Below are positions 354-51,556 of a stretch of 64,000 nt of DNA, one piece after another; the stretch's first letter is position 1; each line of letters opens with the position of its first letter. The position numbers and the translations under genes were made by a program. The DNA comes from Candidatus Dadabacteria bacterium (GTDB lineage Bacteria; Desulfobacterota_D; UBA1144; Nemesobacterales; Nemesobacteraceae): NCBI GenBank assembly GCA_026705445.1, contig JAPPAR010000011.1, positions 10,525 to 74,524 on the forward strand, given 5' to 3'. The notes beneath the pieces were generated by a model that saw only the letters and a list, made by a program, of their open reading frames with translations, made no database searches and had not been told where the DNA came from.

Positions 354-752
354 TCATAGATTGGGATTAGCAACAAAGCGAGCACCCCTTGCTATTTCCA
401 GAGCCAAAAGCTTCCTTGCATCCTTGCCAGGTGGCCAGCCTCTAATATTGGCATGATTGGGATTATCGGTTGTCGGATCGGCTACAACATTTAACGACTG
501 TGACGTCACGTGAGAAACCTCCACATCAGCCCTGCCATGAAGCTTTCTATTTTGCTGCCCGGAAACAATTTCATTTCCGATATCCCAAATTTCATTTTCG
601 GAAAGATTTAAATGGCGGGTAGTTGACAATTCCAGAGGGTCTTCCGGCGGAATGAAGGCATCTTGCTTGACCGTTTGGTCTGCTCTACGATACCACCTTG
701 AGGAAGTGATATATCTCGCCAGAAGCTCATCAGGCAAAACGAAATCCGTCAT
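354..752 (-). CDS. hypothetical protein (132 aa), last gene of an AT-rich three-gene operon
   Basis: ORF overlaps the upstream ORF by 4 nt (ATGA). Low-GC block 350..2300 contrasts with the high-GC flanks. No family recognised with confidence. Confidence 0.4.
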   Translation of the reverse strand: MTDFVLPDELLARYITSSRWYRRADQTVKQDAFIPPEDPLELSTTRHLNLSENEIWDIGNEIVSGQQNRKLHGRADVEVSHVTSQSLNVVADPTTDNPNHANIRGWPPGKDARKLLALEIARGARFVANPNL

Positions 753-1243
753 TCAATCTCCCCGGCAACCTCTCCAATTAAATCCAATAAATCATCGGAA
801 ACAAAAAATGAAACAGGATCCATTCCATGCCTCCGCTTTGCACCAATTATAGCCGCATAATAAACTCCTCCTCCAGGATTAATGCTGATTGAAACGACTC
901 TGGAAGGAGACCTGTACCATTCCAAAGAAATTGCTCCGTCCGGTTCAGCACCTATTTCCGGAGATTCACTGCCCCAAGGAAAAGATTCCAGAAAGATTTT
1001 AGCGTTCCAGAAAACCTCTTTTGTTATGGCTCTCGCCTCTCCTCCGTCCCATCCGTCCACTCCACACTCGTTAAAGGTCTTTTCCAGTTCCCGAAAAACG
1101 CCTCTAGCCCCAAAACCCAAGATATTAGACCTTTGCAAATGAGCAGATAATTCCCTCATTTGCTGGTCTATAAAGTCACCAGCAGAAAAATCCTGACCTG
1201 AGCAACCTGAAATAAGAGGGGAAGATGTTGCAGTTGCCAACAT
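749..1243 (-). CDS. hypothetical protein (164 aa), middle gene of the AT-rich operon
   Basis: ORF abuts the upstream gene (stop at 1245) and overlaps the downstream gene by 4 nt. Confidence 0.4.
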   Translation of the reverse strand: MLATATSSPLISGCSGQDFSAGDFIDQQMRELSAHLQRSNILGFGARGVFRELEKTFNECGVDGWDGGEARAITKEVFWNAKIFLESFPWGSESPEIGAEPDGAISLEWYRSPSRVVSISINPGGGVYYAAIIGAKRRHGMDPVSFFVSDDLLDLIGEVAGEIE

Positions 1244-1244
1244 T

Positions 1245-2000
1245 TTATTTGCATTCCTCCAAGGCTTTCTTTGTTAAATTACTGAAGAAAACTTTATTTT
1301 TTACCCAACGCATTTCATCCATATATTTAGAAACCTGTATTTCACCACAGTTAAGAGATTTTTGCATAAACACATCTATGTCCAACAGCAATCCGGCTTC
1401 TTGCTGAGTCCTTTGAACAGTCTTTATAACATTAACCGAATAGGGAGTCCCCGGAACCTGCAGCACGTCTCGATGCAAGTAGCCTGATAAAAGCCAGTTC
1501 AAACCCTCGATAGGTAGTGGCGGCCTTTTATAATAATCAGCTAATTCAATTCTCTGTCCCTGTTTGATCGCTAGACGGTTTATAAAGCGCAGACCAATTC
1601 TCCCAATTTCAGTTGGTTCTAGCAGTTCACAGTAAATTTTCCAGAGGCGCAACGCTTCTCGGCTAAATTTCTCCCAGTTTTCGTAAGGCTTTAGCCGACT
1701 AAAGACAAATGAATCTTTATTAAACTGTACGACATAAAAACTATCTCCTGACTGGCACTTCAAACCAACGTGGACAAAATCTTTAACTACGTTGGTTCCG
1801 GTCTCGGGTGAAAGCTGAACTTCAGTTTCCTGCACCGTGTCATGCTTCGGGTAATCAGGCAATCGTTCTTCTAACCGGCTTTGTAGACTCGACTCGTCCC
1901 ATTCGGCAGAAGAAACAACTCGAAGATCAAGAACGGCCTCAACAATCGGCGCGCGCGGCAAACGAGGAAATTCTTCTGTTATATCAATAGGGGATTGCAT
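1245..2000 (-). CDS. hypothetical protein (251 aa), first gene of the AT-rich operon
   Basis: Long ORF in a low-GC block. Possibly a conserved-hypothetical family, not verifiable here. Confidence 0.45.
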   Translation of the reverse strand: MQSPIDITEEFPRLPRAPIVEAVLDLRVVSSAEWDESSLQSRLEERLPDYPKHDTVQETEVQLSPETGTNVVKDFVHVGLKCQSGDSFYVVQFNKDSFVFSRLKPYENWEKFSREALRLWKIYCELLEPTEIGRIGLRFINRLAIKQGQRIELADYYKRPPLPIEGLNWLLSGYLHRDVLQVPGTPYSVNVIKTVQRTQQEAGLLLDIDVFMQKSLNCGEIQVSKYMDEMRWVKNKVFFSNLTKKALEECK

Positions 2001-2397
2001 AATCTTTGTTGCTCGTATCCCTTATCACTGTTTTTAAGTTTTTCCTGCCTCCCCATTCTCCACAATTCTCCGATAAGGTTTTTTCTAAATTGATTCCACC
2101 GTCTAAAACCAAGTTGGAGCAAAAAACTAAAGAATACCAAGCGACTCTGCCCGGCTCTAAGCAGGTTCAATAGTAAGCGCAAGATTATTGCCGGTCATAA
2201 TCTTCCACTTCCCTAACCCTAGTGGGAAGAATTTTTAAGAACCCCGCTAGGGTAGCATCAACTTAACAAAACTCCGTCTTACCCGTTTCCTAGGAATTCT
2301 TAGGAAAATTAAACCTTTATTTACTTTAATATAATATTACCGGAGTTCAATATTGACAAGTCTTCTGTCGCTAGCAAATTAAAATGACCGATGCTTT

Positions 2398-2622
2398 TTA
2401 CCAGAGCTTGAAACAAGCGGAAAAAGTACCGATCAATGTACCTAATTGCTTATAATGCCCGACCAGAAGTTTAAGCGAGGAGCAAACAGTAACTTCAGCA
2501 AATTGAATAATACCAGGAAAATCTCTTCCAGGAAAGATGCGCGATCCGGCAAGCAAGGAAACCGGCTTGGGAAGCCGCACCGCCTGGCTCTTGTTGTTCT
2601 TAAACACTTTTACCCTTTCCAT
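2398..2622 (-). pseudogene. vapB-like antitoxin remnant (AbrB/MazE fold). N-terminus duplicated from vapB at 4884..5114, C-terminus divergent, no cognate vapC
   Basis: Internal Met of ORF 2398..2844 gives MERVKVFKNNKSQAVRLPKPVSL, identical over the first 23 aa to the VapB at 4884..5114. DNA is ~90% identical over ~100 nt. The downstream sequence is an unrelated AT-rich block. Confidence 0.5.
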
Positions 2623-2861
2623 CTCCGCTTCCAGACAGGAAGTCCTAACGCATACAGGTGGTAGCAGGTCGCCGAGATATGTCGAGGGCGGAGAGCGCCT
2701 CCAGCGCTCGACTAAAGGGGTGCGTGAAGACTCGACAGCGCGAAATCGGAAAGCGCCTCCCGTGAACGGAAAACATCCCGAATCAAAAAGACGATCGAAA
2801 GCAGCCGGGCGCAGCGGCGAAAAAACGACGAGGCCGGATGACATTACTTGAGAACATTGTC

Positions 2862-2933: not shown

Positions 2934-4172
2934 ATGTCACATTCTTATTTCCGCTGGCAGCGGGACACCTTGAAAAAAGCCCTCGAAACGCGCCGCGTGC
3001 TGTTGCTCTGCGGAGCGCGCCAATGCGGCAAAACCACCCTTGCCAAGGAACTGGTTTCACGGCATATCGCCTACCGCACTCTAGATGATCCGGCCGTACG
3101 GCAGATTGCCGAAACCGACCCGCGAGGCTTCGTGAAGCATTCGGGAAGCACCCTCATCATTGACGAAGTCCAGCGTGCTCCCGACCTGCTTTCCGCAATC
3201 AAGATAAGGGTGGATGAAGATACGAGACCAGGACAATACCTGCTGACGGGTTCAGCCGACATACAGTCTTCCCCCGGAGTACGGGAATCCCTCGCCGGAC
3301 GCATAAGAAAGGTACGGCTGCGTCCGCTCACCCATGGAGAGATTTTAGGAGCGTCTCCGGATTTCCTTGACCGGGCCTTCAGGCAGGATTTCGGGCATCC
3401 CGACCACGCTTACGACCGTGACGCTATGCTGGACATCTCTTTTGGAGGTGGTTTTCCAGAAGCCATTATGCTTGGAGACACAGAGCGAAGATTATGGCAT
3501 CGGGACTACGCGGACGCGCTTGTGGAACGCGACCTCAGGGATCTCGGGCGTATCCAGCGACGCGACGCCATGAGCGAACTGATACACACCCTGGCGGCAT
3601 GGTCGGGCAAGTTCATGGACATTTCATCCATAGGCGCTGGACTTTCCATCGCGCGCTCCACGGTCGAGACATACATAAACGCCCTAGAAGCCTTGTACAT
3701 TGTCGAACGCGTAAGGGCGTGGAAACGCACCGATTACGCGCGGGCGGGGCAACGCCCCAGGCTTTTTATGACTGACTCGGGACTCATGTCTTCGATTCTT
3801 GACTGGGACAGGCAGCAGGTCCGAATGGATGCGGACCGCTCGGGCAAGCTGATCGAAACCTTCATGTTCAACGAAATAGCCGCCCAAGTGGACGCCAATG
3901 CCGGAAGATACAGTCTCTTCCATTACCGTGACCGCGAAAAGCGCGAGATCGACTTCTTGATCGAAAGGGAGGACTGGGCGCTGCTCGGGATTGAGATCAA
4001 GGCGGGCTCGGCCATCGGAACGAACGATTTCAGAAACCTCAGCTGGTTTAAGAAAAACATCGCGCGCGACAGAAAATTTACCGGGGTCGTACTCTATTCG
4101 GGAGAACTCGCGGGTTCCATGGGTGACGGGCTGTGGGCTGTTCCTTTCGGAACAGTCTGGAACCGGCAGTAA
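2934..4172 (+). CDS. AAA+ ATPase, DUF4143 (AAA_14) family
   Basis: 412-aa ORF with Walker A GARQCGKTTLAKE and a Walker B-like LIIDEVQ. The C-terminal part is typical of the DUF4143 ATPase family. Confidence 0.8.
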   Translation: MSHSYFRWQRDTLKKALETRRVLLLCGARQCGKTTLAKELVSRHIAYRTLDDPAVRQIAETDPRGFVKHSGSTLIIDEVQRAPDLLSAIKIRVDEDTRPGQYLLTGSADIQSSPGVRESLAGRIRKVRLRPLTHGEILGASPDFLDRAFRQDFGHPDHAYDRDAMLDISFGGGFPEAIMLGDTERRLWHRDYADALVERDLRDLGRIQRRDAMSELIHTLAAWSGKFMDISSIGAGLSIARSTVETYINALEALYIVERVRAWKRTDYARAGQRPRLFMTDSGLMSSILDWDRQQVRMDADRSGKLIETFMFNEIAAQVDANAGRYSLFHYRDREKREIDFLIEREDWALLGIEIKAGSAIGTNDFRNLSWFKKNIARDRKFTGVVLYSGELAGSMGDGLWAVPFGTVWNRQ

Positions 4173-40041: not shown

Positions 40042-42828
40042 TCAGATTGATAGCGGCGTTGTTTTCGGCAACATCTTTTTTTTCTCCGAGAACCTCTTCC
40101 TTATATCAATTACGGCTTGAGTGATCTCTGCGGGCAGGGATTCGAGTTCCTCTCCCGTTTCCGCCCGCACCGCGTGCCAGAGCGGTTCCATGGTTTCAGT
40201 CAGGGCAGGATGGCTTTCCATTATCTGCATGACCTGCTGGCTCCAGCCGGCCGCCGCGAGATTGATCAGGGATTCCGTCAGACCATGCGTGTTCCAGCAC
40301 TGTTGGCCGACGGCGACGGAAAGCGCTCGGTCAAGTTTTTCCAGGGCTGCCATCCAGTTCCCGCAGCGGGCCAGTACATCGGAGACCGCATGAAACGCGG
40401 CAGGGTCTTCCGGCATCAGCTCCGCTGCGCGGCAAGCGTAGCGTTTCGCTTCTTCCAGGCGCGCAGCCTCGTCACCCCCGAGAATCGCTTCCGCCCTGAC
40501 GCGCCAGGCCTCGCCACACTCGGGGTCAAGCTCCACTGCTTTTTTGCAGCCCGATTCCGAGTCGTCATAATATCCCAGCGAGTTGGCAATATTGCTCTTG
40601 GTGGCCAGCAGTCTGGCGAATTTCCGACGCGTATCCACCGGGTCATCCACATAAACATATTCTGAAAACCGGTCGCAGGAAATGATCCAGTCTTCAAACC
40701 GCCCCAGTTCCAAGTACGCCGTGTCCAGAGCGAACAACGCCAGACCGGCACCGTAACGTAATGTTATCGAGTCATCGGTACGAACATATTGAGTGAAATT
40801 TTCCAAAATGGACACAGCTTCATCATAACGCTTTTGTGCGACAAGAGCGTTTCCTCTCTCGGCAAGCGTCTTGAGAAATGTCAGGCGTAACAATTCCGGA
40901 TCTTCCGGACAGACATATTGCGAGACCTGCCGCCAGATCGCGAGAGCTTCTTCATGATGATCCGCTTCCAAGAGAAGTTTGCCATGAACCCGAATCAACT
41001 CAGTAGCTACATAGCGCAGGGGATGCGGGTCATCCTGGTTTACAAGTTCCCAAATTTTTGCAATAACGCTTAAGACATCGCCAGAATTTTCCAAGGCGAG
41101 AAGGACTCCAGCCTCCCCCGTCAGAGCTCCAAGCGCGCAAATCTGCAATTGTGCGGGGTCATCGGGACCGACAGCCTCGGTTACATGCCTGAACGCATCG
41201 AGGGCATCCTCAAAATGCCTTCTTCCCCTTAGTGCCGAGCCAAGAAGAACCCAAGCAAAAAGATTATCCGGTTCTCGCCTGATTGCCCCTCTGCACTCGG
41301 TTTCCGCCTCCACGAAGCGTTCAGATTGGAGTAGTTCGATGCCGCGACAGACCTTATCCGAAAAACAATCCAAACCTAGCTGGTAGTGCCGGGAAAGGTC
41401 CCGCACTATTTCGCCAAATGCTGACACGTTCGCGCCGATAGAATTGATTATCAGGCTAAAGGCCTTCTTCATCCAGTCTTCGCGTTCCGCGAAATCACTG
41501 TCGTTCGCCGCATAGGGGATCAGGGCTCCAAGCAGTTCAGGCGCCTCTTCATCCTTAGAGACCCCGCTGCTTAACTTCTCAAGAGTCGCCAGATACATCG
41601 ACCGCATCGGAACCGGGCCGAACAGATCGTTGAGGAAGTCTACCAGCAGCTTCAGGCGTCGATATCCCCGCCGCGAGAAACGCAGCAGGAAGTAGATGTT
41701 GTAGAACCGGTCGGCAACCTCGTACCGGATACGCTTTTCCCTCTCTGGCCGCGCTTCCCTGGCGTATCCCTTGTCCACCAGCTGCTTGAGCTGGGCGCTT
41801 GTGTGAGATGAGGAAAGCCTGGCCGCGGCGGATACTTCCTTCGCGAGCATGGGACTCCATCCCTCCGCAAGGCAATGAAACACCTTTCGGGACTGTGTCG
41901 GCAGCTCCTCAATGCGGGACTTGAAGTACGGAGTCTGTTCGTCGATCAGCTGTTCTAGATCCTTGAACGCGGAACCGAGCGGCGACTCAACCAGAATTCC
42001 GTAGGTCAGCACCAGCAGCCGCGGGTTTCCTCCGGTCAGGCGGCGCATGGTCTCGATTCGCCCGCGTTCGCGGCTCAGTGTCTCGGCAATTTTAGTTTTG
42101 CATTCACGTTCTGCGAGGGCCCGGAAGATCTGAAGATACTCTTCGCGCCCAAGACCTTCCAGAAGAAAAACCCGGAAAAACTCGTAGAACGGTTCGCCGC
42201 GGTGCTGTATGGCCTCAAAGACGGCGTTTGCGGAACCGATCAGCAGTATCTCCGGATGTTCGATCAACGCGGCCCGCAAAGCGTGGACTTCGCGCTCATC
42301 ACCCAGTTGTGAGAAAACGATGTCAAGATTTTCGACAAACAGAATCAGCCTCTTTCCGCTTTCTCGGGAGAAATCAATAAGAACCGAGAGCGCGTACGCG
42401 GCAAGGCGCTGCGGATCCTTCTCGTCGGCCGAAAGCGCTTCTGCCTTGTCCTCCCATCGGGAATCCCGAGTGGCGCGGGTCAGGTGATGCAGGGCCGTAA
42501 GCCAGAAATCCGCCAGGTCGGTCACCTGATAGCTTTCCTCGTGAAACGCCACGGGCTGCCATGCTTCTGCAAGATCGGGCGTTTCGCGTACCGCCTGGAG
42601 AAACCGCAGACCGAGGGTGGTTTTGCCCATCCCCCGCGAACCGACAAGCAGCATGTGCTGGCACGGTCGGTCGGTTTTCTGCTCGTCCAAGAGGCGAAGC
42701 ATCTCAGTGAGGGTCTCCTGACGGGCGACGAAGGAAGCCTTGAGTTCTTCCGGGGAGAGTTGGGCCGGGTTGTAGATACGTCTTTGCTTCATGGCTCCAT
42801 CCCCCCTGACCGGTTTTTCCGCCACCAC
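40042..42828 (-). CDS. ORC/Cdc6-like AAA ATPase (Arch_ATPase type) with a winged helix and a long C-terminal TPR array; STAND-like NTPase
   Basis: Walker A LLVGSRGMGKTTL, Walker B RLILFVENLD, winged-helix segment, then ~450 aa of TPR-like repeats. 928 aa. Overlaps the upstream ATPase gene by 40 nt. Confidence 0.75.
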   Translation of the reverse strand: MVAEKPVRGDGAMKQRRIYNPAQLSPEELKASFVARQETLTEMLRLLDEQKTDRPCQHMLLVGSRGMGKTTLGLRFLQAVRETPDLAEAWQPVAFHEESYQVTDLADFWLTALHHLTRATRDSRWEDKAEALSADEKDPQRLAAYALSVLIDFSRESGKRLILFVENLDIVFSQLGDEREVHALRAALIEHPEILLIGSANAVFEAIQHRGEPFYEFFRVFLLEGLGREEYLQIFRALAERECKTKIAETLSRERGRIETMRRLTGGNPRLLVLTYGILVESPLGSAFKDLEQLIDEQTPYFKSRIEELPTQSRKVFHCLAEGWSPMLAKEVSAAARLSSSHTSAQLKQLVDKGYAREARPEREKRIRYEVADRFYNIYFLLRFSRRGYRRLKLLVDFLNDLFGPVPMRSMYLATLEKLSSGVSKDEEAPELLGALIPYAANDSDFAEREDWMKKAFSLIINSIGANVSAFGEIVRDLSRHYQLGLDCFSDKVCRGIELLQSERFVEAETECRGAIRREPDNLFAWVLLGSALRGRRHFEDALDAFRHVTEAVGPDDPAQLQICALGALTGEAGVLLALENSGDVLSVIAKIWELVNQDDPHPLRYVATELIRVHGKLLLEADHHEEALAIWRQVSQYVCPEDPELLRLTFLKTLAERGNALVAQKRYDEAVSILENFTQYVRTDDSITLRYGAGLALFALDTAYLELGRFEDWIISCDRFSEYVYVDDPVDTRRKFARLLATKSNIANSLGYYDDSESGCKKAVELDPECGEAWRVRAEAILGGDEAARLEEAKRYACRAAELMPEDPAAFHAVSDVLARCGNWMAALEKLDRALSVAVGQQCWNTHGLTESLINLAAAGWSQQVMQIMESHPALTETMEPLWHAVRAETGEELESLPAEITQAVIDIRKRFSEKKKMLPKTTPLSI

Positions 42829-44000
42829 TCCCTAAGCAGGTTCGATCTGAAACACACATGGGAGCCATCCCGCCGCACGTACCCGTCCGATTCCAGATTG
42901 CGAAGCGCCGAGAGAAGCTCGCTTTCGCCCTGCCGGGTCAGTTTCTCAATATCCGAGATGCGCGCACCGTCTCTCCGCCGACAGGCGTGATTGAGTATGT
43001 CGTGCGCCGCTTCCTGCTCGTCTGCGTCAAGCATGATTTCCAAGCGGGCTGCGTAATGGTCAAGATGAGGCGTGCCGCCAGGTCCCGTAAGCCTTTCCGT
43101 GAAGCATCGCTCTATTGCACTTTCGGAAACGCGCGAGGGGTCCCCATTGCAGGATTGGCGAAGGGTCGAAAAAAACAGTTGCAGGTGATAGGGAACCGGA
43201 TCCGAGAGGAGGTCGAGAATTTGTGAGACGCTACGTTCGTCCATGCGGAAGCCATAACTGTCTCCAAGCTCCTCCAGAAACTTAACTGCGACATCCCGGT
43301 CCCATGAATCCAGCTGGAAAGGGGCCAGATCGTTTATTAATCCCGAAAGAGCAAAGCGTCTGAGAACGCCTTCAAGCCCGATGGACCCGCCGATCAGTGT
43401 GCACACCTTCCCGCGCATCTGCGGAGACTGGCGCCAGCGCCGGAGCCCGGACAGCAGCAACTCGACATCATGTTTTCCCTCGAGGGTTTTCAGCATGCGC
43501 GAGACGAGTATCGGAAACTCGTCGAGGATGATCAGGAGGCTGCGACCGGGATCCGGCAGACTCTCAAGACGTTCAAGAAGCTGATCCGCTGTACGTTTCC
43601 AGTCCCGGCCGATCGCCCTTTTGAGTTCAATGCGGACTTTTTCGATGCTGACGGAAACTTCGGAAAAGGAAAATGTGCTCTTGAGCGTGTCTACTACGGT
43701 CTTTGCGAACGGAATTTTTTCGATGCCTCGGCGGTACTCCGGGTTCACCGCCAGAGCGGCGACAATTGCCGCCAAGCAATCCGCCGAATCTTCGGCACCT
43801 TCAACATCCACATAAAAGACATCCCAGTTTTCCCGAGGTTCGCGACGAAGTTCCAACATGAGGCTGGTCTTCCCGACCCGTCGCGGGGCAAGCATCAGAA
43901 CATGCTCTCCCTGCTCCAGTTTTTCCCATAGCAGTTCCAGTTCGGATTCTCGTCCGTAGAGGTCTTCGCCGATTACCGCCTGTCCTGTAATGTTTTGCAT
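42789..44000 (-). CDS. ORC/Cdc6-like AAA ATPase (Arch_ATPase + DUF234-like winged-helix C-terminus)
   Basis: Walker A LMLAPRRVGKTSL, Walker B LLIILDEFP. 403 aa. First gene of a two-gene operon with the ATPase-TPR gene. Confidence 0.75.
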   Translation of the reverse strand: MQNITGQAVIGEDLYGRESELELLWEKLEQGEHVLMLAPRRVGKTSLMLELRREPRENWDVFYVDVEGAEDSADCLAAIVAALAVNPEYRRGIEKIPFAKTVVDTLKSTFSFSEVSVSIEKVRIELKRAIGRDWKRTADQLLERLESLPDPGRSLLIILDEFPILVSRMLKTLEGKHDVELLLSGLRRWRQSPQMRGKVCTLIGGSIGLEGVLRRFALSGLINDLAPFQLDSWDRDVAVKFLEELGDSYGFRMDERSVSQILDLLSDPVPYHLQLFFSTLRQSCNGDPSRVSESAIERCFTERLTGPGGTPHLDHYAARLEIMLDADEQEAAHDILNHACRRRDGARISDIEKLTRQGESELLSALRNLESDGYVRRDGSHVCFRSNLLREWWRKNRSGGMEP

Positions 44001-44349
44001 CCGCTCGACTCCCGTTCAGATCAGGATGGAAAACAGAATACATGACAAGGGGTTTTTTGGCAATAAACTTTTTGGCAAAAAGTTTATTGCCATAGGGGAA
44101 TCCACAGAAGATGCTATCGTCGCACTTCCACGAAATCCAAGGCAATCATTCAGGTCCAGAAAACCCGACAGACGCACAGTCAGTTTTTCAGCACAGCGGA
44201 AAACGGCGAAACACTATACACCCAAAGCGTAGTCACCATCACTCATCGCCTTTCGCCCAAGGACATGTCCGCCACGCACTTTCCTAGCCTCGCTCGCTCA
44301 TCAGAAGCTCCTTCTCCCGCAGCCTCCCAGCCACTTTTTTTTCTTCTCG

Positions 44350-44730
44350 CGCGCCCTTTTCCTTATTATATATAAGAGCTCAGACTCCCCTTTCCTCAAG
44401 GCCCGGGGGAAGTTCCCCGTAATAGGGAGAGTCCTCCTCGTACATCTCAAGGACCTTATCCTTCGGCATGTCGCACATATCTTCCGTGAAACCGAACATC
44501 CTGCATATGTGGCGAAGCTCCTCCTCCCTTCCCGGAAGCGGGTCCATGGGCTGTATCAGTTTCTCCCCCTCAAGCTCCTTCCGCACGTCCTGGTTCTCGG
44601 CAAGCGGAGTTCCGTACTCGTTTGAGTGATAGAGCCTGTCGAACCTCTTCCTCGGTCTCTGGCCGGGATCCTCGGCCGGGTATCCCACCGTCATGAGCCA
44701 GATGGGAACTATGTTCTCGGGGGTCCCGAG
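44350..44730. repeat. ~380-bp direct repeat, copy B (within the intact nitroreductase gene and its downstream region)
   Basis: See 39591..39968. Confidence 0.8.
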
Positions 44731-45261
44731 AACCTTCGGGAACTCAGCCGGCTTTCTGCCCGTGGCTATAAGGCAGCACCCGAGGCCCAGGTCAGTGGCC
44801 GCGAGCATGGCGTTCGCTATTGCCTGGCCCGCCTCGACCCTTAGAAGATCCTCCGCCCTGTCCTTGGGAAAACTCATGAGCCTCGGATAGGTGCTCTCGG
44901 TAAGTATCTTGTAGGTCCAGCCGTGAGCGGCGGTTATGGCCCTCGCGGGAAACAGCACCTGGAAGGTCTGTATGAGCTCCTTGTACCAGGCGTCTAGGTT
45001 TATGAGCCACGCCACGATAATCGGGGCCTGGCGCAGGTGAATCTCGTTAAAAGCGGATCCGCATTCAACTATCTTCTCGAATTTCTCCGGGGGATAGGTC
45101 CTTTTGTCTATGACTATCGCCTCGGTCGAGTTGCAGTTGCCCTGGCAGGAGCAGTAGCGCGCCGCCTGGAGCATCTTCTGTATTTTCCAGTCCTCAACCT
45201 CTTTCCAGGGCTTATAGAACCTAAAGCTTCTCCTGGTGCCCATTGCTTCAAAAACTTCCAT
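44380..45261 (-). CDS. nitroreductase-family flavoprotein
   Basis: N-terminal RRSFRFY motif, nitroreductase-fold length and pattern, 293 aa. Confidence 0.7.
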   Translation of the reverse strand: MEVFEAMGTRRSFRFYKPWKEVEDWKIQKMLQAARYCSCQGNCNSTEAIVIDKRTYPPEKFEKIVECGSAFNEIHLRQAPIIVAWLINLDAWYKELIQTFQVLFPARAITAAHGWTYKILTESTYPRLMSFPKDRAEDLLRVEAGQAIANAMLAATDLGLGCCLIATGRKPAEFPKVLGTPENIVPIWLMTVGYPAEDPGQRPRKRFDRLYHSNEYGTPLAENQDVRKELEGEKLIQPMDPLPGREEELRHICRMFGFTEDMCDMPKDKVLEMYEEDSPYYGELPPGLEERGV

Positions 45262-45317
45262 GTGAAATCCCTCCTCTATCTCTGGTTTGTTCTCTAAAAA
45301 TTTCTTCCCCGCCGCGC

Positions 45318-46082
45318 CTAAAGAGTGGTCCAGCCCCCGTCTATAACGAGATCGGAGCCCGTAACGTACCGGGCCTCGTCCGAAGCTAGGTAAAGCACCG
45401 AGTGGGCCACCTCCTCCGCCTCGGCCCTTCTCACAAGGGGAATCATGTCGGCCGCTATCGCGTCGAGCTGCTCCTCCGCGTCAGGAGGGTTCCCCATGAA
45501 CTCGGGGTCCATCTTGGTCTTTATGTAGCCGGGACAGACGGAGTTAGTCCTTATGTTGTCTTTCGCGTGATCAAGGGCCATGCTTCTCGTTATTTGCCTC
45601 ACGGCTCCCTTGGAAGCGTTGTACGCAACGCAGCCCTCCATCCCCACGATGCCGAGCACGCTTGAGTTGTTGATTATGGAACCCCCGCCGTGCTTTGCCA
45701 TGAGCGGAACCACGTACTTGCTTACGAGAAAAACCCCCTTCACGTTTATGTCGATCGTGCGGTCCCAGACCTCGTTAGAGGTCGTTACCACCGTGCCGCC
45801 CTCAAGGATCCCGGCGTTGTTAAACAGTATGTCGACCCTTCCGAAATCTCCGTAGAAGGCCTCTACCACCCTCCTTACGTCATCTTCCTTGGAAACGTCC
45901 CCGGGATAGGCCTTTATCTCCCCGGGACCCGGGTTCTCGGCCACCACTTCGTCAAGCCGCTCCGCGGTCCTGGACATTATGCCCACGTTGGCGCCTTCTG
46001 CTGAGAACAAAAGCGCCGTAGCTTTTCCTATTCCCTCTCCCCCGCCCGTTATGAGCGCCGTTTTTCCATCAAGTCTTCCCAT
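45318..46082 (-). CDS. short-chain dehydrogenase/reductase (SDR) family oxidoreductase
   Basis: TGGGEGIGKA Rossmann motif and the YxxxK catalytic motif (YNASKGAV). Confidence 0.9.
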   Translation of the reverse strand: MGRLDGKTALITGGGEGIGKATALLFSAEGANVGIMSRTAERLDEVVAENPGPGEIKAYPGDVSKEDDVRRVVEAFYGDFGRVDILFNNAGILEGGTVVTTSNEVWDRTIDINVKGVFLVSKYVVPLMAKHGGGSIINNSSVLGIVGMEGCVAYNASKGAVRQITRSMALDHAKDNIRTNSVCPGYIKTKMDPEFMGNPPDAEEQLDAIAADMIPLVRRAEAEEVAHSVLYLASDEARYVTGSDLVIDGGWTTL

Positions 46083-46410
46083 TTTTTCCTCCTTGCTTGT
46101 GTTTTAGAGCTTCTTCTCAACCTTTATATTATATAATAGGAATTAGTTTCAAGAGCCAAAAAAAACTTTATTTTTCACCCAAGTACATTTTTCCATATCA
46201 GGTAGCGCCGTCTAATTATCCGTGTGAATTCCCGAAAACATCCAAGGAAAATCAAGAGCAGAGCAGTTTATTAAGTACGAATAAGTTATCGCGTTAGGTA
46301 TATTTTTATACGTCAACTTACCAACACTATTAAATGAGAATGCAATACGAGTGTTTGTGCTTAATGGCATAACCAAAACGATAAAACGGGAAACAACAAT
46401 CTGGATATGA

Positions 46411-47319
46411 ATGAGGTGCTGCATGGCAGAAAGCCTTCCTTTCGAGCCTGATGACTTGGACCAGAAAACCGTATCTCCCTTAAAGGAACTAGGGGCGTAT
46501 GAAGCGTTATGGGATCAAAAGGGCATGTCCTTCAAAAAAATTTCCGAAATGCACCAAGGCCGCTGGGAATCGTCTCTTTCTGATTTTGTGGACGAAGCCA
46601 TTGCCTACGAGTTTGCCGGTCGTGTTCGCAGTTTGTTCGACGAGTCTGGGATTGACAAGTTCGGCGTTTGTGTTCGTGGTACGGGAGAATACCCCAAAGG
46701 CCTCTATGACGCCGTTTATCCGGTTGAATTGCTTTATTTTCAGGGATTGTGGGGTCTGGTTTTCACAAGATCAGTTGCGGTCGTGGGTACGCGCAAGCCG
46801 TCCGAAAAGGGAGTTGCTCGTACGCGCCGCCTTGTCAGAAACTTGGTGGAAAACAATTTCACCATAGTTTCAGGGTTAGCTTCTGGAATCGACACCGTCG
46901 CACACACTACAGCGATTGAGTCTGGAGGCCGGACCATAGGAGTAATTGGCACCCCGATTTCAAAATTCTATCCAAAGGAAAATGTTGAGCTTCAGAAGAA
47001 AATAGCAAAGGAGCATTTGCTTGTAAGCCAAATTCCAGTATGCCGTTACTTGCGGCAGGGGCCGCGCGGGAATCGGCTATTCTTTCCAGAGCGTAATATA
47101 ACGATGTCCGCACTTGCCGAAGCAACTATTATTGTCGAGGCTGGCGAAACATCAGGAACTCTGGTTCAAGCTGCCGCGGCTCTTAAACAGGGAAGGAAAT
47201 TATTCATCCTTGATAATTGTTTTTGCAATTCCACTCTCACTTGGCCAAGAACTTTTCTTGAGAAAGGCGCTATAAGGGTTGCTGATTACGAAGATATAAG
47301 GAGACATCTTGGCTCTTAG
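46411..47319 (+). CDS. DprA/Smf-like (SLOG/DNA_processg_A Rossmann) domain protein
   Basis: VAVVGTRKPS...IVSGLASGIDTVAHTTAIESGGRTIGVIGTPI...IVEAGETSGTLVQAAAALKQGRKLF is the DprA-type Rossmann core. AT-rich; overlaps the next gene by 11 nt. Confidence 0.7.
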   Translation: MRCCMAESLPFEPDDLDQKTVSPLKELGAYEALWDQKGMSFKKISEMHQGRWESSLSDFVDEAIAYEFAGRVRSLFDESGIDKFGVCVRGTGEYPKGLYDAVYPVELLYFQGLWGLVFTRSVAVVGTRKPSEKGVARTRRLVRNLVENNFTIVSGLASGIDTVAHTTAIESGGRTIGVIGTPISKFYPKENVELQKKIAKEHLLVSQIPVCRYLRQGPRGNRLFFPERNITMSALAEATIIVEAGETSGTLVQAAAALKQGRKLFILDNCFCNSTLTWPRTFLEKGAIRVADYEDIRRHLGS

Positions 47320-47941
47320 GCTCTGCAAGATTGATGATCTCTTACGAAGCGATCATTTATATCTTACGGAAGATGATCATTGCTTTTTTTTTCGGGAATA
47401 TACCGCAAACAAGAGCTACGATTACGGCGAAACTAACGACCTAATTCAGAATTTTAAGAAAGAGCTAGATAAAAAAGGTACATCTCAATGGAAATACAAG
47501 GGAAAGGCAATAAACAAAATAGCGGAAGAATTTCGGGAATCGTTAAAAGCGGAATGGTTTGAGGAATACACCTTAGTTCCGATTCCACCATCAAAATCAA
47601 AAGAAGACCCACTCTATGACGATCGTATGGTTCAAATGCTTAAGATTTTTGGGCAAGGGCTTAACCTTGATATCCGTGAATTGGTCCTGCAACGCGAAAG
47701 TACCCCACCATTTCACAAAATCACCCCTCGTCCACCTTGGGAAGACCTAGTTGATAACTATTACATTGACGAAAATATCGCAAATCCTGAACCGAAAAAG
47801 ATTATTTTATTTGATGACCTTCTCACTGAAGGCGCACATTTCAAAGCTGCCCAACATGTTCTTGAGAAGAGATATCCCGGCATAATTACCAGAGGGGTTT
47901 TTATAGCACGACGAGTATATGCGGATGCCGAAGAAATTTAA
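47309..47941 (+). CDS. phosphoribosyltransferase (type I PRTase)-like protein
   Basis: PRPP-binding motif IILFDDLLTEGAHF. 210 aa, translationally coupled to the DprA-like gene. Confidence 0.7.
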   Translation: MALRLCKIDDLLRSDHLYLTEDDHCFFFREYTANKSYDYGETNDLIQNFKKELDKKGTSQWKYKGKAINKIAEEFRESLKAEWFEEYTLVPIPPSKSKEDPLYDDRMVQMLKIFGQGLNLDIRELVLQRESTPPFHKITPRPPWEDLVDNYYIDENIANPEPKKIILFDDLLTEGAHFKAAQHVLEKRYPGIITRGVFIARRVYADAEEI

Positions 47942-48088
47942 GAAAGAACTCTGAAGCAACTCATATAGAGCTATAGGTGGCTTGATTAACGTATCTGCCG
48001 TAGAAATATACGCAGGAATATAAAGTGGTTGCCTTACAGCGTTGGAGTTCGGCCGCAGGGAAATCAAGAACTATTTCTTTGGCAGGAT

Positions 48089-48134
48089 CGTATATAATAA
48101 TCCATTATGAGCAACGGGAAATCCTTTATGATAG
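48089..48134. repeat. duplicated copy of the nitrilase promoter and first 8 codons (direct repeat with 49035..49080)
   Basis: gtatataataatccattatgagcaacgggaaatcctt here and gtataataacccattatgagcaacggaaaatcctt at 49035..49080. The repeats flank the HEPN/MNT cassette. Confidence 0.75.
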
Positions 48135-48229
48135 GTGGAGTCCGGCTTCAGGTTCTTTCCGAAATCCTCCACCGCAGTCACGAGGAGCTTCGCCGGGAAG
48201 ACAGGACTTGGCAATGAAGGATCGTTTTC

Positions 48230-48652
48230 ATGATTGAATACGACAAATTTCAAAATTCCCTGAAACGCCTTGAGGAACAGTACGGAAATTACCGTGCCAT
48301 AGAGAACTCTGACCTGGATTCGATAATGTGGGAAGCTGTGGCCGAGTCGGTCATACACAGGTTTGAGGTCTGTTACGACTGCCTATGGGAGGTGCTGAGA
48401 CGCCACCTCGCAGAGGAGCTCGGCGTTCCAGATGCCCCAAACAGCCCGAAACCTGTTTTCAGACTGGCCTTTGAAAACAACCTTCTCCCCTCACCGATCG
48501 AAAAATGGCTTGATTACGCAAACAGCCGCATCAATACAAGCCATGACTATGATGAGGGAAAGGCCAGAAGATGCCTTGGAATCATAAGCAGCTTTATTGA
48601 CAATGCCACAGGTCTTTACGAAACAATGAGCGGAGAAACATGGAAACAGTAA
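48230..48652 (+). CDS. nucleotidyltransferase substrate-binding protein, HI0074 family (HEPN-like toxin of a HEPN/MNT pair)
   Basis: Family pattern (NTase_sub_bind), 140 aa, overlaps the downstream MNT gene by 13 nt. Confidence 0.7.
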   Translation: MIEYDKFQNSLKRLEEQYGNYRAIENSDLDSIMWEAVAESVIHRFEVCYDCLWEVLRRHLAEELGVPDAPNSPKPVFRLAFENNLLPSPIEKWLDYANSRINTSHDYDEGKARRCLGIISSFIDNATGLYETMSGETWKQ

Positions 48653-48957
48653 AAGCTATTGATATCTCTTCTGAGCAGCGCGGCGTTCTTCTTGCGCTGC
48701 TTAAAAAGCATCTTCCGAATACCCGCGTCTGGGTATACGGTTCCCGCGCGAGGCTTGCCGCGAAAAAGAGTTCGGACCTCGACATGGTGGTATTTGCCGG
48801 AAGCGGACAGAGAAGACAGGTCGGCGATCTTCGGGAAGCTCTTGAACAGAGCGATCTTCCGTTTCGGGTGGACCTGTTCGTGTGGGATGACATGCCGGAG
48901 AGATTCCGGGAGAAAATTGAAGGTGACCACGTAACCCTTGTTTCCCCTGACCACTAA
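48640..48957 (+). CDS. minimal nucleotidyltransferase (MNT, HI0073-like antitoxin)
   Basis: GSRARLAAKKSSDLDMVVF is the GS-x9-13-DxD nucleotidyltransferase motif. 105 aa. Confidence 0.8.
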   Translation: METVKAIDISSEQRGVLLALLKKHLPNTRVWVYGSRARLAAKKSSDLDMVVFAGSGQRRQVGDLREALEQSDLPFRVDLFVWDDMPERFREKIEGDHVTLVSPDH

Positions 48958-49034
48958 ACGCAGGCGGGAGGGTCATGCTCTGGTTCCAAAGAGAGACGCA
49001 AACTCAAAATGAATCTGCATTTTCCCTGAGTTCC

Positions 49035-49080
49035 GTTGTATAATAACCCATTATGAGCAACGGAAAATCCTTCACGGCGG
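49035..49080. repeat. native nitrilase promoter/start; second copy of the direct repeat
   Basis: See 48089..48134. Confidence 0.75.
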
Positions 49081-49958: not shown

Positions 49959-50203
49959 TGTTGCTTCGGGCAATCCGCCTTTATTTATTCAGTGATGTCC
50001 CATTCCCTGCCGACAGGCAAGGTCAAGTCCACACCCGGTGAGATAGTTACAGTACCCTTTAACGAACCGGAAATACGTGAGAAAAAACTGGATTCAGCCT
50101 CATCTTTAGGCTCGACCCGAGCGGGTTGTTTTTCTCCGTTCTCAGGTGACAGCTTGTGTCCAGACATTTCGGTAACTCCTTTACATGGTTAGTTTCTAAT
50201 GAA

Positions 50204-50842
50204 TTACGACTTAGCAAACGAAATCAGGGAATCATAGATACCAGAGTCAGCCTCACGCAGTGCCGCAATATAGCGTTCGCGGACATCTTCAGACGCAGTG
50301 AGGTCGGCACCACCGCCCCATGTGAGTTTTTCACCACCATATTTGGCAACTATTACATCGGCAAGCAAGCGCGCGTGTCGGCCGTTGCCGTTCGGAAAAA
50401 GGTGAATTTTCACTAACCGGTGATGAAAAATAACGGCCAGTTCAGCAACACCGTAGGTATTGTGTTCCAGCCAATAAGCGGCATCGTCCAGCAACTTGCG
50501 AAATTCGGTCTGGATGAGGGAATAGTTGACGCCGATGTTTTTGTCGGATTTTCGGTACTGACCTGCCCATTTCCAGACACGACCGAACATGCGCTTATGA
50601 AGGTTCAGGATAAATTTCTCCGAAAAAATATTCTGTTTCGATGCCAAAACAGATTTCCGCATTACCCATCTCCGGGCTTCAAGAATATTTTCCCGCTCGA
50701 AACGGTCCAGATCTTCACGCATTAATATGGTGGGAACGAGATGTTCCTTCTCTTCCTCGCTAAGCGGGGTCTGGCCCTCTGTATAACGATACTGAACCAT
50801 TTCAGTCCCACAGACTGATGGCAGGGTTGCGCACCAACTCAT
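50204..50842 (-). CDS. Fic/Doc-family protein ('mobile mystery protein B')
   Basis: Fic motif HLFPNGNGRHARLLADV. The true start is probably MVQYRYTEG, which overlaps the partner gene. Confidence 0.8.
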   Translation of the reverse strand: MSWCATLPSVCGTEMVQYRYTEGQTPLSEEEKEHLVPTILMREDLDRFERENILEARRWVMRKSVLASKQNIFSEKFILNLHKRMFGRVWKWAGQYRKSDKNIGVNYSLIQTEFRKLLDDAAYWLEHNTYGVAELAVIFHHRLVKIHLFPNGNGRHARLLADVIVAKYGGEKLTWGGGADLTASEDVRERYIAALREADSGIYDSLISFAKS

Positions 50843-51251
50843 CAGCGATTTGGGCGGTTTTCTCCTGCCTGTCGCCTACATCCTGCGCTTCAAGCATCAT
50901 GCTGTGGTCCACAGGATCAACGATATCACGAGCCTTTCTGAGCGCCTGCTTGCGCACGATGTTCCGCAAGGAGCCATCATTTGGAACAAAAACATAAACG
51001 AGCCTGCAATCCAATGCTTCAGCCGCCTTGCGAAGCGACCTAAGTGTAATCGCATCATTGATCTCGTTTTTCTCCAAACGAGCGGCGGATTGCTGTGTGA
51101 TTCCTATACGTTCCGCCATCTGACGAACGCTCATGCCAAGCGAGGTGCGGACAGCACGAATCCAACCGCCAGAGGGACGGTCGCAAACATTCACTCTGGA
51201 AAGGTGGTCATCCAGCGTCTGCAATTGCATATACTTAAATTTGTTTGTCAT
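50802..51251 (-). CDS. XRE-type HTH protein ('mobile mystery protein A')
   Basis: HTH (MSVRQMAERIGITQQSAARLE) and the family pattern, immediately upstream of the Fic gene. Confidence 0.75.
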   Translation of the reverse strand: MTNKFKYMQLQTLDDHLSRVNVCDRPSGGWIRAVRTSLGMSVRQMAERIGITQQSAARLEKNEINDAITLRSLRKAAEALDCRLVYVFVPNDGSLRNIVRKQALRKARDIVDPVDHSMMLEAQDVGDRQEKTAQIADELVRNPAISLWD

Positions 51252-51482
51252 ATCACAGCCTATATTCTGTAAGTAAAACCAATGTTAACAGGATAAAAGC
51301 TGTAAGTCAAGGATAAAATTACAGAATATAATCTGTGACTAGATTTAGGCTTGATTTCCCAAAGCCCTTCGACAATAACGCTGAAAAGAATATAGAAGTG
51401 GCCAAATTTCTATATTTGCAGATATGTTCTGCTTGCTAAATCCCATTTTTTACAGAAACCAAAATTGTCAAAGACGAAAAGC

Positions 51483-51556
51483 TGGCTGGGGCACTAGGAT
51501 TCGAACCTAGACTAGCGGATCCAGAGTCCGCTGTACTGCCGTTATACGATGCCCCA
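51483..51556 (-). tRNA. tRNA-Gln (anticodon CTG), CCA encoded
   Basis: Cloverleaf: acceptor TGGGGCA/TGCCCCA, anticodon loop CTCTGGA, T-arm GGTTCGAATCC. AT-rich DNA begins immediately at its 3' end. Confidence 0.85.

What the first reader, a model, noticed from the sequence alone, without database searches (positions are those of the whole stretch)
46411..47941. AT-rich DprA/SLOG-like + phosphoribosyltransferase two-gene cassette
A DprA-type Rossmann (SLOG-like) protein is translationally coupled (11-nt overlap) to a type I PRTase with an intact PRPP-binding loop. The pair sits in a ~40% GC block within a ~58% GC genome, between the core SDR gene and a TA cassette, on an island that ends at tRNA-Gln.

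DprA-like + PRTase pairs have been reported among candidate anti-phage systems in phage-satellite hotspots (recalled from the literature; mechanism unknown). SLOG + PRTase combinations are predicted nucleotide-modifying conflict systems.

This would be an instance in a distant lineage, and it is not a DNA-uptake dprA.
Basis: partly seen in the sequence, partly recalled or inferred. Interest (0 to 1): 0.65.

Follow-up and report, generated by a model that had tools for sequence, protein, structure and literature searches.

The report
Shosta (ShosA–ShosT) anti-phage toxin–antitoxin cassette
The two overlapping genes are a copy of the already described Shosta (ShosTA) anti-phage toxin–antitoxin system, here in a sponge-associated Dadabacteria genome and in the common short form whose toxin lacks the extra domain of the E. 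coli version that has been studied; it is a sound but ordinary find.

Summary
Two same-strand ORFs, 46411–47319 (DprA-like; likely true start 46423) and 47309–47941 (PRTase-like; TTG start 5 nt after an AAGGAG), overlap by 11 nt.

PADLOC models identify them near full length as ShosA (2.8e-94) and ShosT (3.5e-47). Its mechanism has since been studied in E. coli (2025, 2026).

- The ShosA→ShosT order holds in 80/80 genome loci and 50/54 viral loci, with overlapping frames in 78/80.
- The cassette (~1.96 kb, bordered by a 9-bp repeat) is missing from the same site in closely related strains. It has GC3 0.36–0.47 against 0.71–0.74 in its neighbours, and both genes are under purifying selection.
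- The same pair occurs on P2-like Burkholderia phages, prophage contigs and plasmids.

The toxin here is a 210-aa PRTase-only form without the pyrophosphatase domain of E. coli ShosT (424 aa). It shares only motifs with E. coli ShosT and is structurally closest to the competence protein ComFC.

The GC contrast was overstated (44.6% against 52.6%). The "island ending at tRNA-Gln" is three independently variable cassettes.

Verdict: a new member of a known kind; interest is low to moderate.

The parts
46130..46138 (.). Left copy of the 9-bp direct repeat TATATAATA bordering the ShosAT cassette. Strains without the cassette have a single copy at this site.
   Evidence: The 9-mer occurs only twice in the 64-kb window, at the two cassette borders (0.15 expected per strand). 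There is one copy in L144, L145 and L170.
46139..46422 (+). AT-rich (about 34% GC) upstream region of the cassette. It presumably holds the promoter and the ShosA ribosome-binding site (GAGG at 46413-46416).
   Evidence: Composition; sequence. The only sigma-70-like matches in this upstream gap (46103-46132) lie just outside the cassette, and the count is no better than in shuffles. The promoter is therefore inferred, not shown.
46411..47319 (+). shosA: DprA-like antitoxin, with a SAM-like helical N-domain at about residues 23-78 and a DprA Rossmann domain at about 85-300. The longest ORF starts at 46411; the likely true start is ATG 46423 (298 aa).
   Evidence: PADLOC ShosA PDLC03961 2.8e-94, residues 25-300 against model positions 16-293 of 303. 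Pfam PF02481 2.6e-54. AF2 pLDDT 84, with Foldseek hits to 3uqz, 8zva and 3maj. Gene callers give 298 aa. dN/dS 0.04 against L001.
47298..47303 (+). Shine-Dalgarno AAGGAG for shosT, inside the 3' end of shosA and 5 nt before the TTG start (translational coupling).
   Evidence: Sequence. Overlapping frames are found in 78/80 related loci.
47309..47941 (+). shosT (short form): a 210-aa single-domain PRTase-fold toxin with PRPP loop 165-IILFDDLLTEGAHF-178. It has no pyrophosphatase/HAD domain and no zinc finger.
47942..48090 (+). 3' non-coding tail of the cassette. It is predicted to be structured, and no canonical intrinsic terminator was found.
   Evidence: MFE -36 kcal/mol for 47942-48095, with no shuffle control.
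48091..48099 (.). Right copy of the TATATAATA direct repeat. It is also the start of the 34-nt repeat that flanks the neighbouring HepT/MNT cassette.

Best explanation
This is a Shosta (ShosTA) toxin-antitoxin/abortive-infection module of the short-toxin subtype. It was acquired horizontally as a ~1.96-kb two-gene cassette in a variable hot spot between an SDR gene and a CN-hydrolase gene of a Candidatus Dadabacteria genome.

Proposed working, inferred from the E. coli system:
1. The two genes are co-transcribed and translationally coupled, so antitoxin and toxin are made together.
2. ShosT is a PRPP-dependent phosphoribosyltransferase whose activity is toxic. In E. coli it disturbs purine metabolism and causes DNA damage, duplications and filamentation.
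3. ShosA is a dimeric DprA-like ssDNA-binding protein. It does not bind the toxin but counteracts its damage through RecA-dependent recombination and repair (a type IV toxin-antitoxin system).
4. During phage infection, ShosA function is lost. This happens either because host expression is shut off and ShosA decays, or because phage ssDNA or replication intermediates titrate it away from RecA.
5. ShosT then kills or arrests the cell before the phage completes its cycle.

Shown here: identity of both proteins, the conserved pairing and coupling, conservation of the PRPP-binding aspartates and two ssDNA-binding arginines, purifying selection, strain-variable presence, and carriage on phages and plasmids.

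Inferred only: toxicity, the antitoxin mode, the trigger, and anti-phage activity in this organism and for this short subtype.
For: Family identity:
- PADLOC ShosA 2.8e-94 and ShosT 3.5e-47, both near full length.
- The same two models also match the experimentally validated E. coli pair from Peduovirus P24C9, at 2.4e-85 and 1.8e-53.
- Control: bona fide E. coli Smf/DprA scores 195 bits on the ShosA model (Rossmann domain only) and 295.6 bits on TIGR00732. The window protein scores 313.8 and 164.6, like E. coli ShosA at 171.

Pairing and coupling:
- ShosA lies directly upstream of ShosT on the same strand in 80/80 genome loci across many phyla and in 50/54 IMG/VR loci.
- The stop and start overlap by 4-47 nt in 78/80 loci. 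In the window, AAGGAG is followed by 5 nt and then TTG.

Conserved functional residues:
- D169/D170 are invariant and align with E. coli D331/D332, whose mutation abolishes toxicity (PMC11961720, PMC12961424).
- ShosA R128 and R228 are invariant and align with the ssDNA-binding arginines. K189 aligns with the RecA-contact residue K200.

Structure:
- The ShosT model's best Foldseek PDB hit is E. coli ShosT 8zvd (E 4.4e-6, probability 1.0).
- The ShosA model matches S. pneumoniae DprA and E. coli ShosA over their full length.

Accessory and mobile nature:
- Related strains L144 and L145 (flanking genes 94-97% identical) have SDR, then HepT/MNT, then CN hydrolase, with no ShosAT. L001 has ShosAT without HepT/MNT.
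- A 9-bp repeat borders the cassette.
- GC3 is 0.36-0.47 against 0.71-0.74.
- The same pair occurs on Burkholderia P2-like phages, E. coli and rhizobial plasmids, and 54 viral contigs.

Selection: dN/dS is 0.04 for ShosA and 0.15 for ShosT.
Against: - No experiment was found for the short subtype; all mechanistic work read used the 424-aa E. coli toxin. The original Kimelman 2012 ShosTA paper could not be read.
- Sequence similarity to E. coli ShosT is confined to short motifs. A profile of short ShosT does not find the ShosT PDB chains even at E 10, and hhalign probability is 4%.
- The PADLOC ShosT model appears to be built from a mixture of short and long forms, so the shared hit is weaker proof of orthology than it looks.
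- The pyrophosphatase domain that drives the E. coli reaction forward is absent.
- The window ShosA has no long disordered C-terminal tail of the kind that makes E. coli ShosA unstable. The R206 RecA contact is an invariant Q here. The trigger and neutralisation details may therefore differ.
Confidence: 0.85

Rival explanations
1. The pair is a DNA-uptake/transformation module: a DprA plus a ComFC-like protein that handle incoming ssDNA together, not a defence system.
Against: The ComF score is 14.4 bits against a cut-off of 233.55. The conserved 4-Cys zinc finger that ComFC needs for DNA internalisation is absent; only one Cys is invariant. TIGR00732 dprA is below its cut-off, while genuine Smf is well above it. 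The cassette is missing from near-identical strains, differs in composition from the host, and is carried by temperate phages and plasmids. No comEC/comEA-type genes lie beside it.
Confidence: 0.04
2. It is a plain addiction/stabilisation toxin-antitoxin module that maintains the variable hot spot or a mobile element, with no role in phage defence in this host.
For: The module sits among other toxin-antitoxin pairs (HepT/MNT, Fic/HTH) in a region of cassette turnover. ShosTA was first described as a toxin-antitoxin pair (Kimelman 2012, as cited). It also occurs on plasmids.
Against: E. coli homologues protect against T7, lambda and other phages (PMC9122126, PMC11961720). The short pair sits in P2-like phage accessory regions that are known defence hotspots. 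The two roles are not exclusive.
Confidence: 0.08
3. It is a nucleotide-sensing SLOG + PRTase conflict system. The SLOG-fold protein would bind a nucleotide-derived signal and the PRTase would make or modify a nucleotide messenger, rather than acting through DNA damage and repair.
For: There is a weak Pfam SLOG LDcluster4 hit (1.8e-07). The ShosA model also resembles LOG and Moco-carrier SLOG proteins at lower rank. The acceptor substrate of ShosT is still unknown, even in E. coli.
Against: The DprA-specific features dominate: full-length DprA architecture, conserved ssDNA-binding arginines, and the YPKxN motif. E. coli ShosA works through ssDNA and RecA binding (PMC12961424).
Confidence: 0.03

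Closest known systems
Shosta/ShosTA of E. coli (KTE181, APEC O1, P2-like prophage hotspot; PDB 8ZVA-8ZVD, 9VZO)
   Same: It has the same two-gene architecture and order (DprA-like gene, then PRTase gene, same strand), seen in Peduovirus P24C9. Both proteins hit the same PADLOC models. ShosA has the SAM-like + Rossmann architecture. The PRPP-loop DD pair and the TEG..H signature are shared, along with collinear EDxH and EDP(x)Y motifs. The ShosT structure is the best Foldseek PDB match. Both are carried by P2-like phages.
   Different: The toxin is 210 aa rather than 424 aa and has no N-terminal HAD-like pyrophosphatase domain. Sequence identity is about 13-15%, and profile searches do not connect the two. 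ShosA identity is about 32%, there is no long disordered C-terminal tail, and the R206 RecA contact is replaced by an invariant Q. In the word-limited search the short form is about six times more common: 649 against 111 clusters at 90% identity. No experiment on the short form was found in the papers read.
ComFC/ComF (natural transformation; H. pylori 7P0H) together with DprA
   Different: The window protein has no 4-Cys zinc finger, and its PRPP loop ends in an invariant His instead of the TTGTT signature. Its scores lie far below the family cut-off, and it sits in a mobile, strain-variable context rather than a competence regulon.
PsyrTA (RqlHI) and retron PRTase effectors
   Same: These are also defence or toxin-antitoxin systems that use a DprA-like antitoxin (PsyrA) or a PRTase effector. 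PsyrA is a secondary PADLOC hit (9.2e-25).
   Different: The PsyrA score is far lower than the ShosA score, and there is no PsyrT match. No reverse transcriptase or retron ncRNA lies nearby; Rfam finds only the tRNA.

Membership tests
Shosta/ShosTA defence system | A DprA-like protein matching the ShosA profile | tested here: met
   PDLC03961 at 313.8 bits, 2.8e-94, covering model positions 16-293 of 303. The genuine DprA control (E. coli Smf) scores only 195 bits, over the Rossmann part alone.
Shosta/ShosTA defence system | A PRTase-domain protein matching the ShosT profile | tested here: met
   PDLC03962 at 159.2 bits, 3.5e-47, covering model positions 4-212 of 237. The same model matches validated E. 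coli ShosT at 1.8e-53. Caveat: the model appears to mix short and long forms.
Shosta/ShosTA defence system | The two genes adjacent and co-oriented as one operon | tested here: met
   An 11-nt overlap in the window. The arrangement holds in 80/80 genome loci and 50/54 viral loci, and the order is the same in the E. coli P2-like phage.
Shosta/ShosTA defence system | PRPP-binding residues needed for toxicity (E. coli D331/D332; also R285, K280, H240) | tested here: met
   D169/D170 are invariant and aligned with D331/D332. Assigning H136 and R141 to K280 and R285 is only a spacing-based guess.
Shosta/ShosTA defence system | ShosA ssDNA-binding arginines and RecA-contact residues (E. coli R139, R234; K200, R206) | tested here: inconclusive
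   R128 and R228 are invariant and aligned, and K189 aligns with K200. The R206 position is an invariant Q, and the R261 position is also Q.
Shosta/ShosTA defence system | N-terminal pyrophosphatase (HAD-like) domain fused to the PRTase, as in the characterised E. coli ShosT | tested here: not met
   The protein is 210 aa, and its homologues are 205-225 aa. The alignment starts at E. coli residue ~172, the domain boundary. Long forms carry HAD Pfam hits. This feature belongs to the studied subtype, not to the HMM-based family definition.
Shosta/ShosTA defence system | Toxicity of ShosT, rescue by ShosA, and protection against phage | not testable with these tools
   This needs cloning and phage challenge. 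The only indirect support is purifying selection and the mobile, variable context.
Bona fide DprA/Smf (TIGR00732, PRK10736) | Score above the curated equivalog cut-off | tested here: not met
   TIGR00732 scores 164.5 bits against a cut-off of 191.15; PRK10736 scores 127 against 495. E. coli Smf scores 295.6 and 705.8.
Bona fide DprA/Smf (TIGR00732, PRK10736) | SAM + Rossmann core, with or without a C-terminal winged-helix domain | tested here: met
   The model aligns over all 283 residues of S. pneumoniae DprA. There is no C-terminal winged-helix domain, because the protein ends at residue 302. Architecture alone does not distinguish ShosA from DprA.
Bona fide DprA/Smf (TIGR00732, PRK10736) | A stable core-genome gene, present in related strains | tested here: not met
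   It is absent from the same site in L144 and L145, and its GC3 is 0.47 against 0.71-0.74 in the neighbours.
ComF/ComFC family (TIGR00201) | 4-Cys zinc finger at the N-terminus | tested here: not met
   Only C25 is invariant in the 39-sequence alignment. ComFC has C3, C6, C15 and C18.
ComF/ComFC family (TIGR00201) | Family profile score above the cut-off | tested here: not met
   14.4 bits against 233.55. The best E-value among 39 homologues is 1e-06.
ComF/ComFC family (TIGR00201) | ComF-type PRT fold | tested here: met
Type I PRTase (Pfam PF00156) | Gathering score for the domain; PRPP loop | tested here: inconclusive
   PF00156 scores 13.1 bits against a cut-off of 26.3. The PRPP loop and the fold are nevertheless present.

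The most novel reading that the evidence does not exclude
The short-form Shosta, the majority form in nature, may be an exapted copy of the DprA-ComFC ssDNA-handling pair of natural transformation. Its 210-aa ComFC-like, pyrophosphatase-less toxin would then work differently from E. coli ShosT, for example by acting on or together with ssDNA or DprA-bound intermediates rather than by draining purine metabolism. ShosA would be the direct sensor of phage ssDNA. Under this reading, current E. coli-based models describe only a minority variant.
Probability: 0.15. Interest if true: 0.55.

Novelty: new member of a known kind. Interest (0 to 1): 0.27.

Why it matters
As an instance, it adds a Shosta system to a poorly studied lineage (sponge-associated Candidatus Dadabacteria). 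It also gives a clean natural case of presence or absence at a small cassette hot spot.

More generally, the analysis shows that the form found here is much more common in sequence databases than the 424-aa E. coli form on which all mechanistic work rests. It also shows that its nearest structural relative is ComFC. Anyone generalising the E. coli model (pyrophosphatase-coupled PRTase, C-terminal degron on ShosA) should test a short-form system. That is a useful pointer, not a surprise for the field.

Tried and rejected
- Sequence searches of the ShosT-like protein against the PDB, alone and as a 39-sequence profile, gave no ShosT hit and only PRPP-loop matches to PyrR, APRT and OPRT. hhalign against E. 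coli ShosT aligned only 45 columns at 4% probability. The link had to come from structure and motifs.
- Kimelman 2012 (PMC3317161) is not held. I could not establish whether the original ShosTA pair was short or long. A text search for ShosTA with Shewanella returned only false matches.
- I looked for a tRNA-Gln-derived att repeat or an integrase to support a single integrated island, and found neither. Comparison with L001, L144 and L145 showed three independent cassettes instead.
- I looked for mobile-element ends. The cassette's non-coding ends have no other copies in the window or in any fetched locus, there are no terminal inverted repeats, and the left end folds weakly. An IS605-type cargo transposon is not supported, although a TnpB element uses the same insertion point in L177.
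- Exact-sequence look-up of the SDR protein gave only contigs with the same arrangement, so no empty site. The empty site came from the metagenome scan with the CN hydrolase.
- Promoter and terminator scans gave nothing above the shuffle expectation. Rfam found only the tRNA.
- There is no second DprA or PRTase paralogue in the window.
Full report
**1. The observation**

The ORF scan finds 46411..47319 (+, 302 aa, ATG) and 47309..47941 (+, 210 aa, TTG), overlapping by 11 nt. The junction reads ...AAGGAG(47298-47303)-ACATC-TTG(47309)...TAG(47317-47319). The second gene therefore has a perfect Shine-Dalgarno sequence inside the end of the first.

The first gene probably starts at ATG 46423, giving 298 aa. 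GAGG lies 6 nt upstream, the closest homologue is 298 aa, and gene callers on identical contigs aa.

Composition:
- The window is 52.6% GC and the two-gene block 44.6% (ShosA 48.0%, ShosT 39.8%).
- The upstream spacer is 33.8% GC.
- About 6.6% of equal-sized windows are lower.
- The contrast is far stronger at third codon positions: 0.47 and 0.36, against 0.71-0.74 for the SDR, nitroreductase and CN-hydrolase genes.

The neighbours are as described: an SDR upstream on the opposite strand, and a HepT (NTase_sub_bind) + MNT pair downstream. tRNA-Gln lies at 51483-51556 on the minus strand.

**2. What the proteins are**

ORF1 matches Pfam DNA_processg_A (2.6e-54) with a weak SLOG cluster-4 hit. 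ORF2 has no Pfam or NCBIfam hit at 0.01. Against PADLOC-DB, ORF1 is ShosA (PDLC03961, 313.8 bits, 2.8e-94, model positions 16-293 of 303). ORF2 is ShosT (PDLC03962, 159.2 bits, 3.5e-47, positions 4-212 of 237).

Shosta/ShosTA has this history:
- Kimelman 2012 described it as a toxin-antitoxin pair.
- Rousset 2022 reported it as "DprA + PRTase" from the P2 hotspot, protecting against T7 and lambda (PMC9122126).
- Millman 2022 listed it among new defence systems.
- It has since been dissected structurally (PMC11961720; PMC12961424).

The mechanism is no longer unknown.

**3. Specificity control**

DprA-like proteins resemble each other, so I scored genuine E. coli Smf/DprA as a control. It gets 195 bits on the ShosA model, over the Rossmann part only. 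It gets 295.6 bits on TIGR00732 (cut-off 191.15) and 705.8 on PRK10736.

The window protein scores 313.8 on ShosA and 164.6 on TIGR00732, below the cut-off. That is the same pattern as validated E. coli ShosA (171.0) and a short-type ShosA from an E. coli plasmid (165.8).

**4. Conservation of the pair**

- The ShosT-like protein has 649 relatives (clusters at 90% identity) in the word-limited search; the 120 listed are 181-238 aa, almost all 205-238 aa.
- A profile of 39 of them finds 2,947 representatives at E ≤ 1e-3 and 840 at E ≤ 1e-30 among 1.84 billion. The top 150 are nearly all 200-230 aa.
- In 80 of 80 genome loci a ShosA homologue lies directly upstream on the same strand. These loci span Acidobacteriota, several Proteobacteria classes, Chloroflexota, Binatia, Cyanobacteria, candidate phyla radiation (CPR) lineages and Dadabacteria.
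- In 78 of 80 loci the ShosA stop overlaps the ShosT start by 4-47 nt.
- Of 54 IMG/VR viral contigs that carry the gene, 50 have ShosA directly upstream; 3 are truncated and 1 is rearranged.
- The pair is annotated on P2-like Burkholderia phages (Mana, PhiBP82.2), on a Ralstonia and a Pseudomonas phage, and on plasmids of E. coli, Enterobacter, Rhizobium and Sinorhizobium.

**5. Relation to the characterised E. coli system**

The E. coli pair in Peduovirus P24C9 has the same order, ShosA (349 aa as annotated) then ShosT (424 aa). Its residue numbering matches the papers: H240, K280, R285, D331, D332. E. coli ShosT has an N-terminal HAD-like pyrophosphatase domain (residues 1-164) and a PRTase domain (165-424).

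The window toxin corresponds to the PRTase domain only. At the sequence level the relationship is thin:
- phmmer and a family profile do not find the ShosT PDB chains.
- BLASTP aligns 49 residues around the PRPP loop.
- hhalign gives 4% probability.

Other evidence supports the link:
- A Smith-Waterman alignment is collinear over the whole domain. It lines up EDxH (window 21-24, E. coli ~175-178), EDP(x)Y (99-103, 243-246) and IILFDDLLTEG-AH against ILVIDDFCTEGNAH.
- The AF2 model (pLDDT 89.5) has E. coli ShosT 8zvd as its best Foldseek PDB hit (E 4.4e-6, probability 1.0, TM 0.48). H. pylori ComF and two further ShosT entries follow.
- The E. coli proteins also hit the PADLOC models that the window proteins hit (2.4e-85 and 1.8e-53). 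Their best models are separate ones, PDLC02997 and PDLC03012. PADLOC thus treats both forms as Shosta, with what appear to be mixed profiles.

Long-form ShosT has 111 clusters in the same kind of search. The short form therefore appears to be the more common one.

**6. ComFC**

ComFC is a 191-aa zinc-finger + PRT protein. It binds ssDNA and, in S. pneumoniae and C. jejuni, interacts with DprA (PMC9005727). The window protein is not a ComF:
- It scores 14 bits against a cut-off of 233.
- The four zinc-finger cysteines are missing; only C25 is invariant.
- The PRPP loop ends in an invariant His.

Both Shosta partners nevertheless have transformation proteins as their nearest cellular relatives. 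This suggests the system derives from that pair. Neither mechanistic paper mentions ComF. I treat this as an inference about origin, not function.

**7. ShosA anatomy**

The AF2 model (pLDDT 84) has these parts:
- residues 1-19 disordered;
- a helical domain at about 23-78;
- a Rossmann domain at about 85-300.

It aligns over all of S. pneumoniae DprA (9.4e-22), over E. coli ShosA 8zva (4e-19) and over R. palustris DprA. So it has the SAM-like N-domain, as E. coli ShosA does, and lacks only the C-terminal winged-helix domain found in some DprA proteins. It also lacks a long disordered C-terminal tail like the one that destabilises E. coli ShosA.

Residue conservation:
- R128 (GTR) and R228 (RN) are invariant and align with the ssDNA-binding arginines.
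- K189 aligns with the RecA-contact residue K200.
- The R206 and R261 positions are invariant Q.

**8. Genomic setting**

The closest genome locus is a Candidatus Dadabacteria metagenome-assembled genome (MAG), isolate RHO1_bin_23 (L001), at about 96.8% DNA identity.

- L001 is collinear with window 41321-48128, so ShosAT is present.
- L001 lacks 48129-49038 (HepT/MNT) and 49959-51477 (Fic + HTH).
- Metagenome contigs L144 and L145, whose flanking genes are 94-97% identical, have SDR, then HepT/MNT, then CN hydrolase, with no ShosAT.
- L170 carries HepT/MNT plus three ORFs of unknown family at this site. L177 carries a TnpB element.
- The 9-mer TATATAATA occurs only twice in the window, at 46130-46138 and 48091-48099. 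These are the two borders of the ShosAT cassette. ShosAT-free strains have one copy there.

The cassette is thus a ~1.96-kb accessory insertion in a small hot spot, not part of one island anchored on tRNA-Gln.

Between the window and L001, dN/dS is 0.04 for ShosA and 0.15 for ShosT, similar to the neighbouring genes. Both genes are being maintained.

**9. Mechanism**

By homology with the E. coli system I propose the following:
1. ShosA and ShosT are expressed together.
2. ShosT carries out a PRPP-dependent toxic reaction.
3. ShosA neutralises it indirectly, through ssDNA binding and RecA.
4. Infection removes ShosA function, releasing the toxin.

What is shown here:
- The two-gene architecture and the translational coupling.
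- The conserved catalytic and DNA-binding residues.
- Purifying selection on both genes.
- Mobility of the cassette.

The activities themselves are inferred. The missing pyrophosphatase domain is compatible with toxicity, because the R56A pyrophosphatase mutant of E. coli ShosT is only marginally less toxic. The missing C-terminal tail and the changed RecA contact mean the trigger may differ.

**10. Rivals**

- A true competence pair is disfavoured by the sub-threshold scores, the missing zinc finger, the strain-variable and phage- or plasmid-borne distribution, and the composition.
- A pure addiction module cannot be excluded without experiments, but it is not exclusive with defence.
- A SLOG nucleotide-sensor reading has only a weak Pfam hit in its favour.

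**11. Verdict**

This is a correctly spotted system, already named and detectable by standard tools: a new member of a known kind in an unusual host. The points of modest added value are the short, pyrophosphatase-less, ComFC-like toxin subtype, for which I found no experimental test although it is the commoner form, and the clean insertion-site comparison.

Noticed in passing
window 48093-48126 and 49039-49072 (cassette 48129-49038): The HepT/MNT toxin-antitoxin cassette is flanked by a 34-nt direct repeat (94% identical). The repeat duplicates the -10-like box, 5' UTR and first codons (MSNGKSF) of the CN-hydrolase gene. The related genome L001 has one copy and no cassette.
   Followed up: partly
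window 46130-46138 / 48091-48099; L177:1113-2430; L170:4517-7000: The same TATATAATA point upstream of the CN-hydrolase gene receives different cargo in different strains. The window and L001 have ShosAT; L177 has a TnpB (IS605 OrfB/Cas12f-like) element; L170 has three ORFs (212, 245 and 155 aa) with no Pfam or PADLOC match. The insertion mechanism is unexplained; no recombinase or terminal repeats were seen.
   Followed up: partly
window 49959-51477: A Fic/Doc (PADLOC PDC-S04, SoFic-like) + HTH antitoxin cassette lies between the CN-hydrolase stop and the 3' end of tRNA-Gln. It is absent from L001 and present in L144 and L145. A 20-nt palindrome (51253-51272 / 51319-51338) sits upstream of the HTH gene and looks like an operator.
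   Followed up: partly
window 27577-33603 (+): A 2008-aa protein with HTH_upstream_double_PIN, PIN-TPR-GreABC and Permuted GreAB-C domains. It is a member of the predicted TPR-GreAB-C-PIN conflict systems.
   Followed up: no
window 40042-42828 (-) and 42789-44000 (-): A 928-aa AAA_16 + TPR (STAND-like) protein overlaps a 403-aa ATPase_2-type ATPase (weak PADLOC mad8 hit). This may be another defence or signalling pair, about 2.4 kb upstream of the Shosta cassette beyond the nitroreductase and SDR genes.
   Followed up: no
window 37896-39062 (+): An IS605-type TnpB (OrfB_IS605 + Cas12f1-like TNB), 388 aa. Two other ORFs in the window are also 388 aa long, but they are unrelated (an aminotransferase and an unknown).
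   Followed up: partly
window 1-2700 and 2934-4172: A second low-GC block (about 42% GC, the lowest in the window) holds a 251-aa ORF (1245-2000, minus strand) with no Pfam hit. Next to it is an AAA_14 + DUF4143 ATPase.
   Followed up: no
L098 (IMG/VR 3300005534_000378): This is the one viral locus where the ShosA homologue lies downstream on the opposite strand instead of directly upstream of ShosT. It is either a rearranged or a differently organised variant.
   Followed up: no
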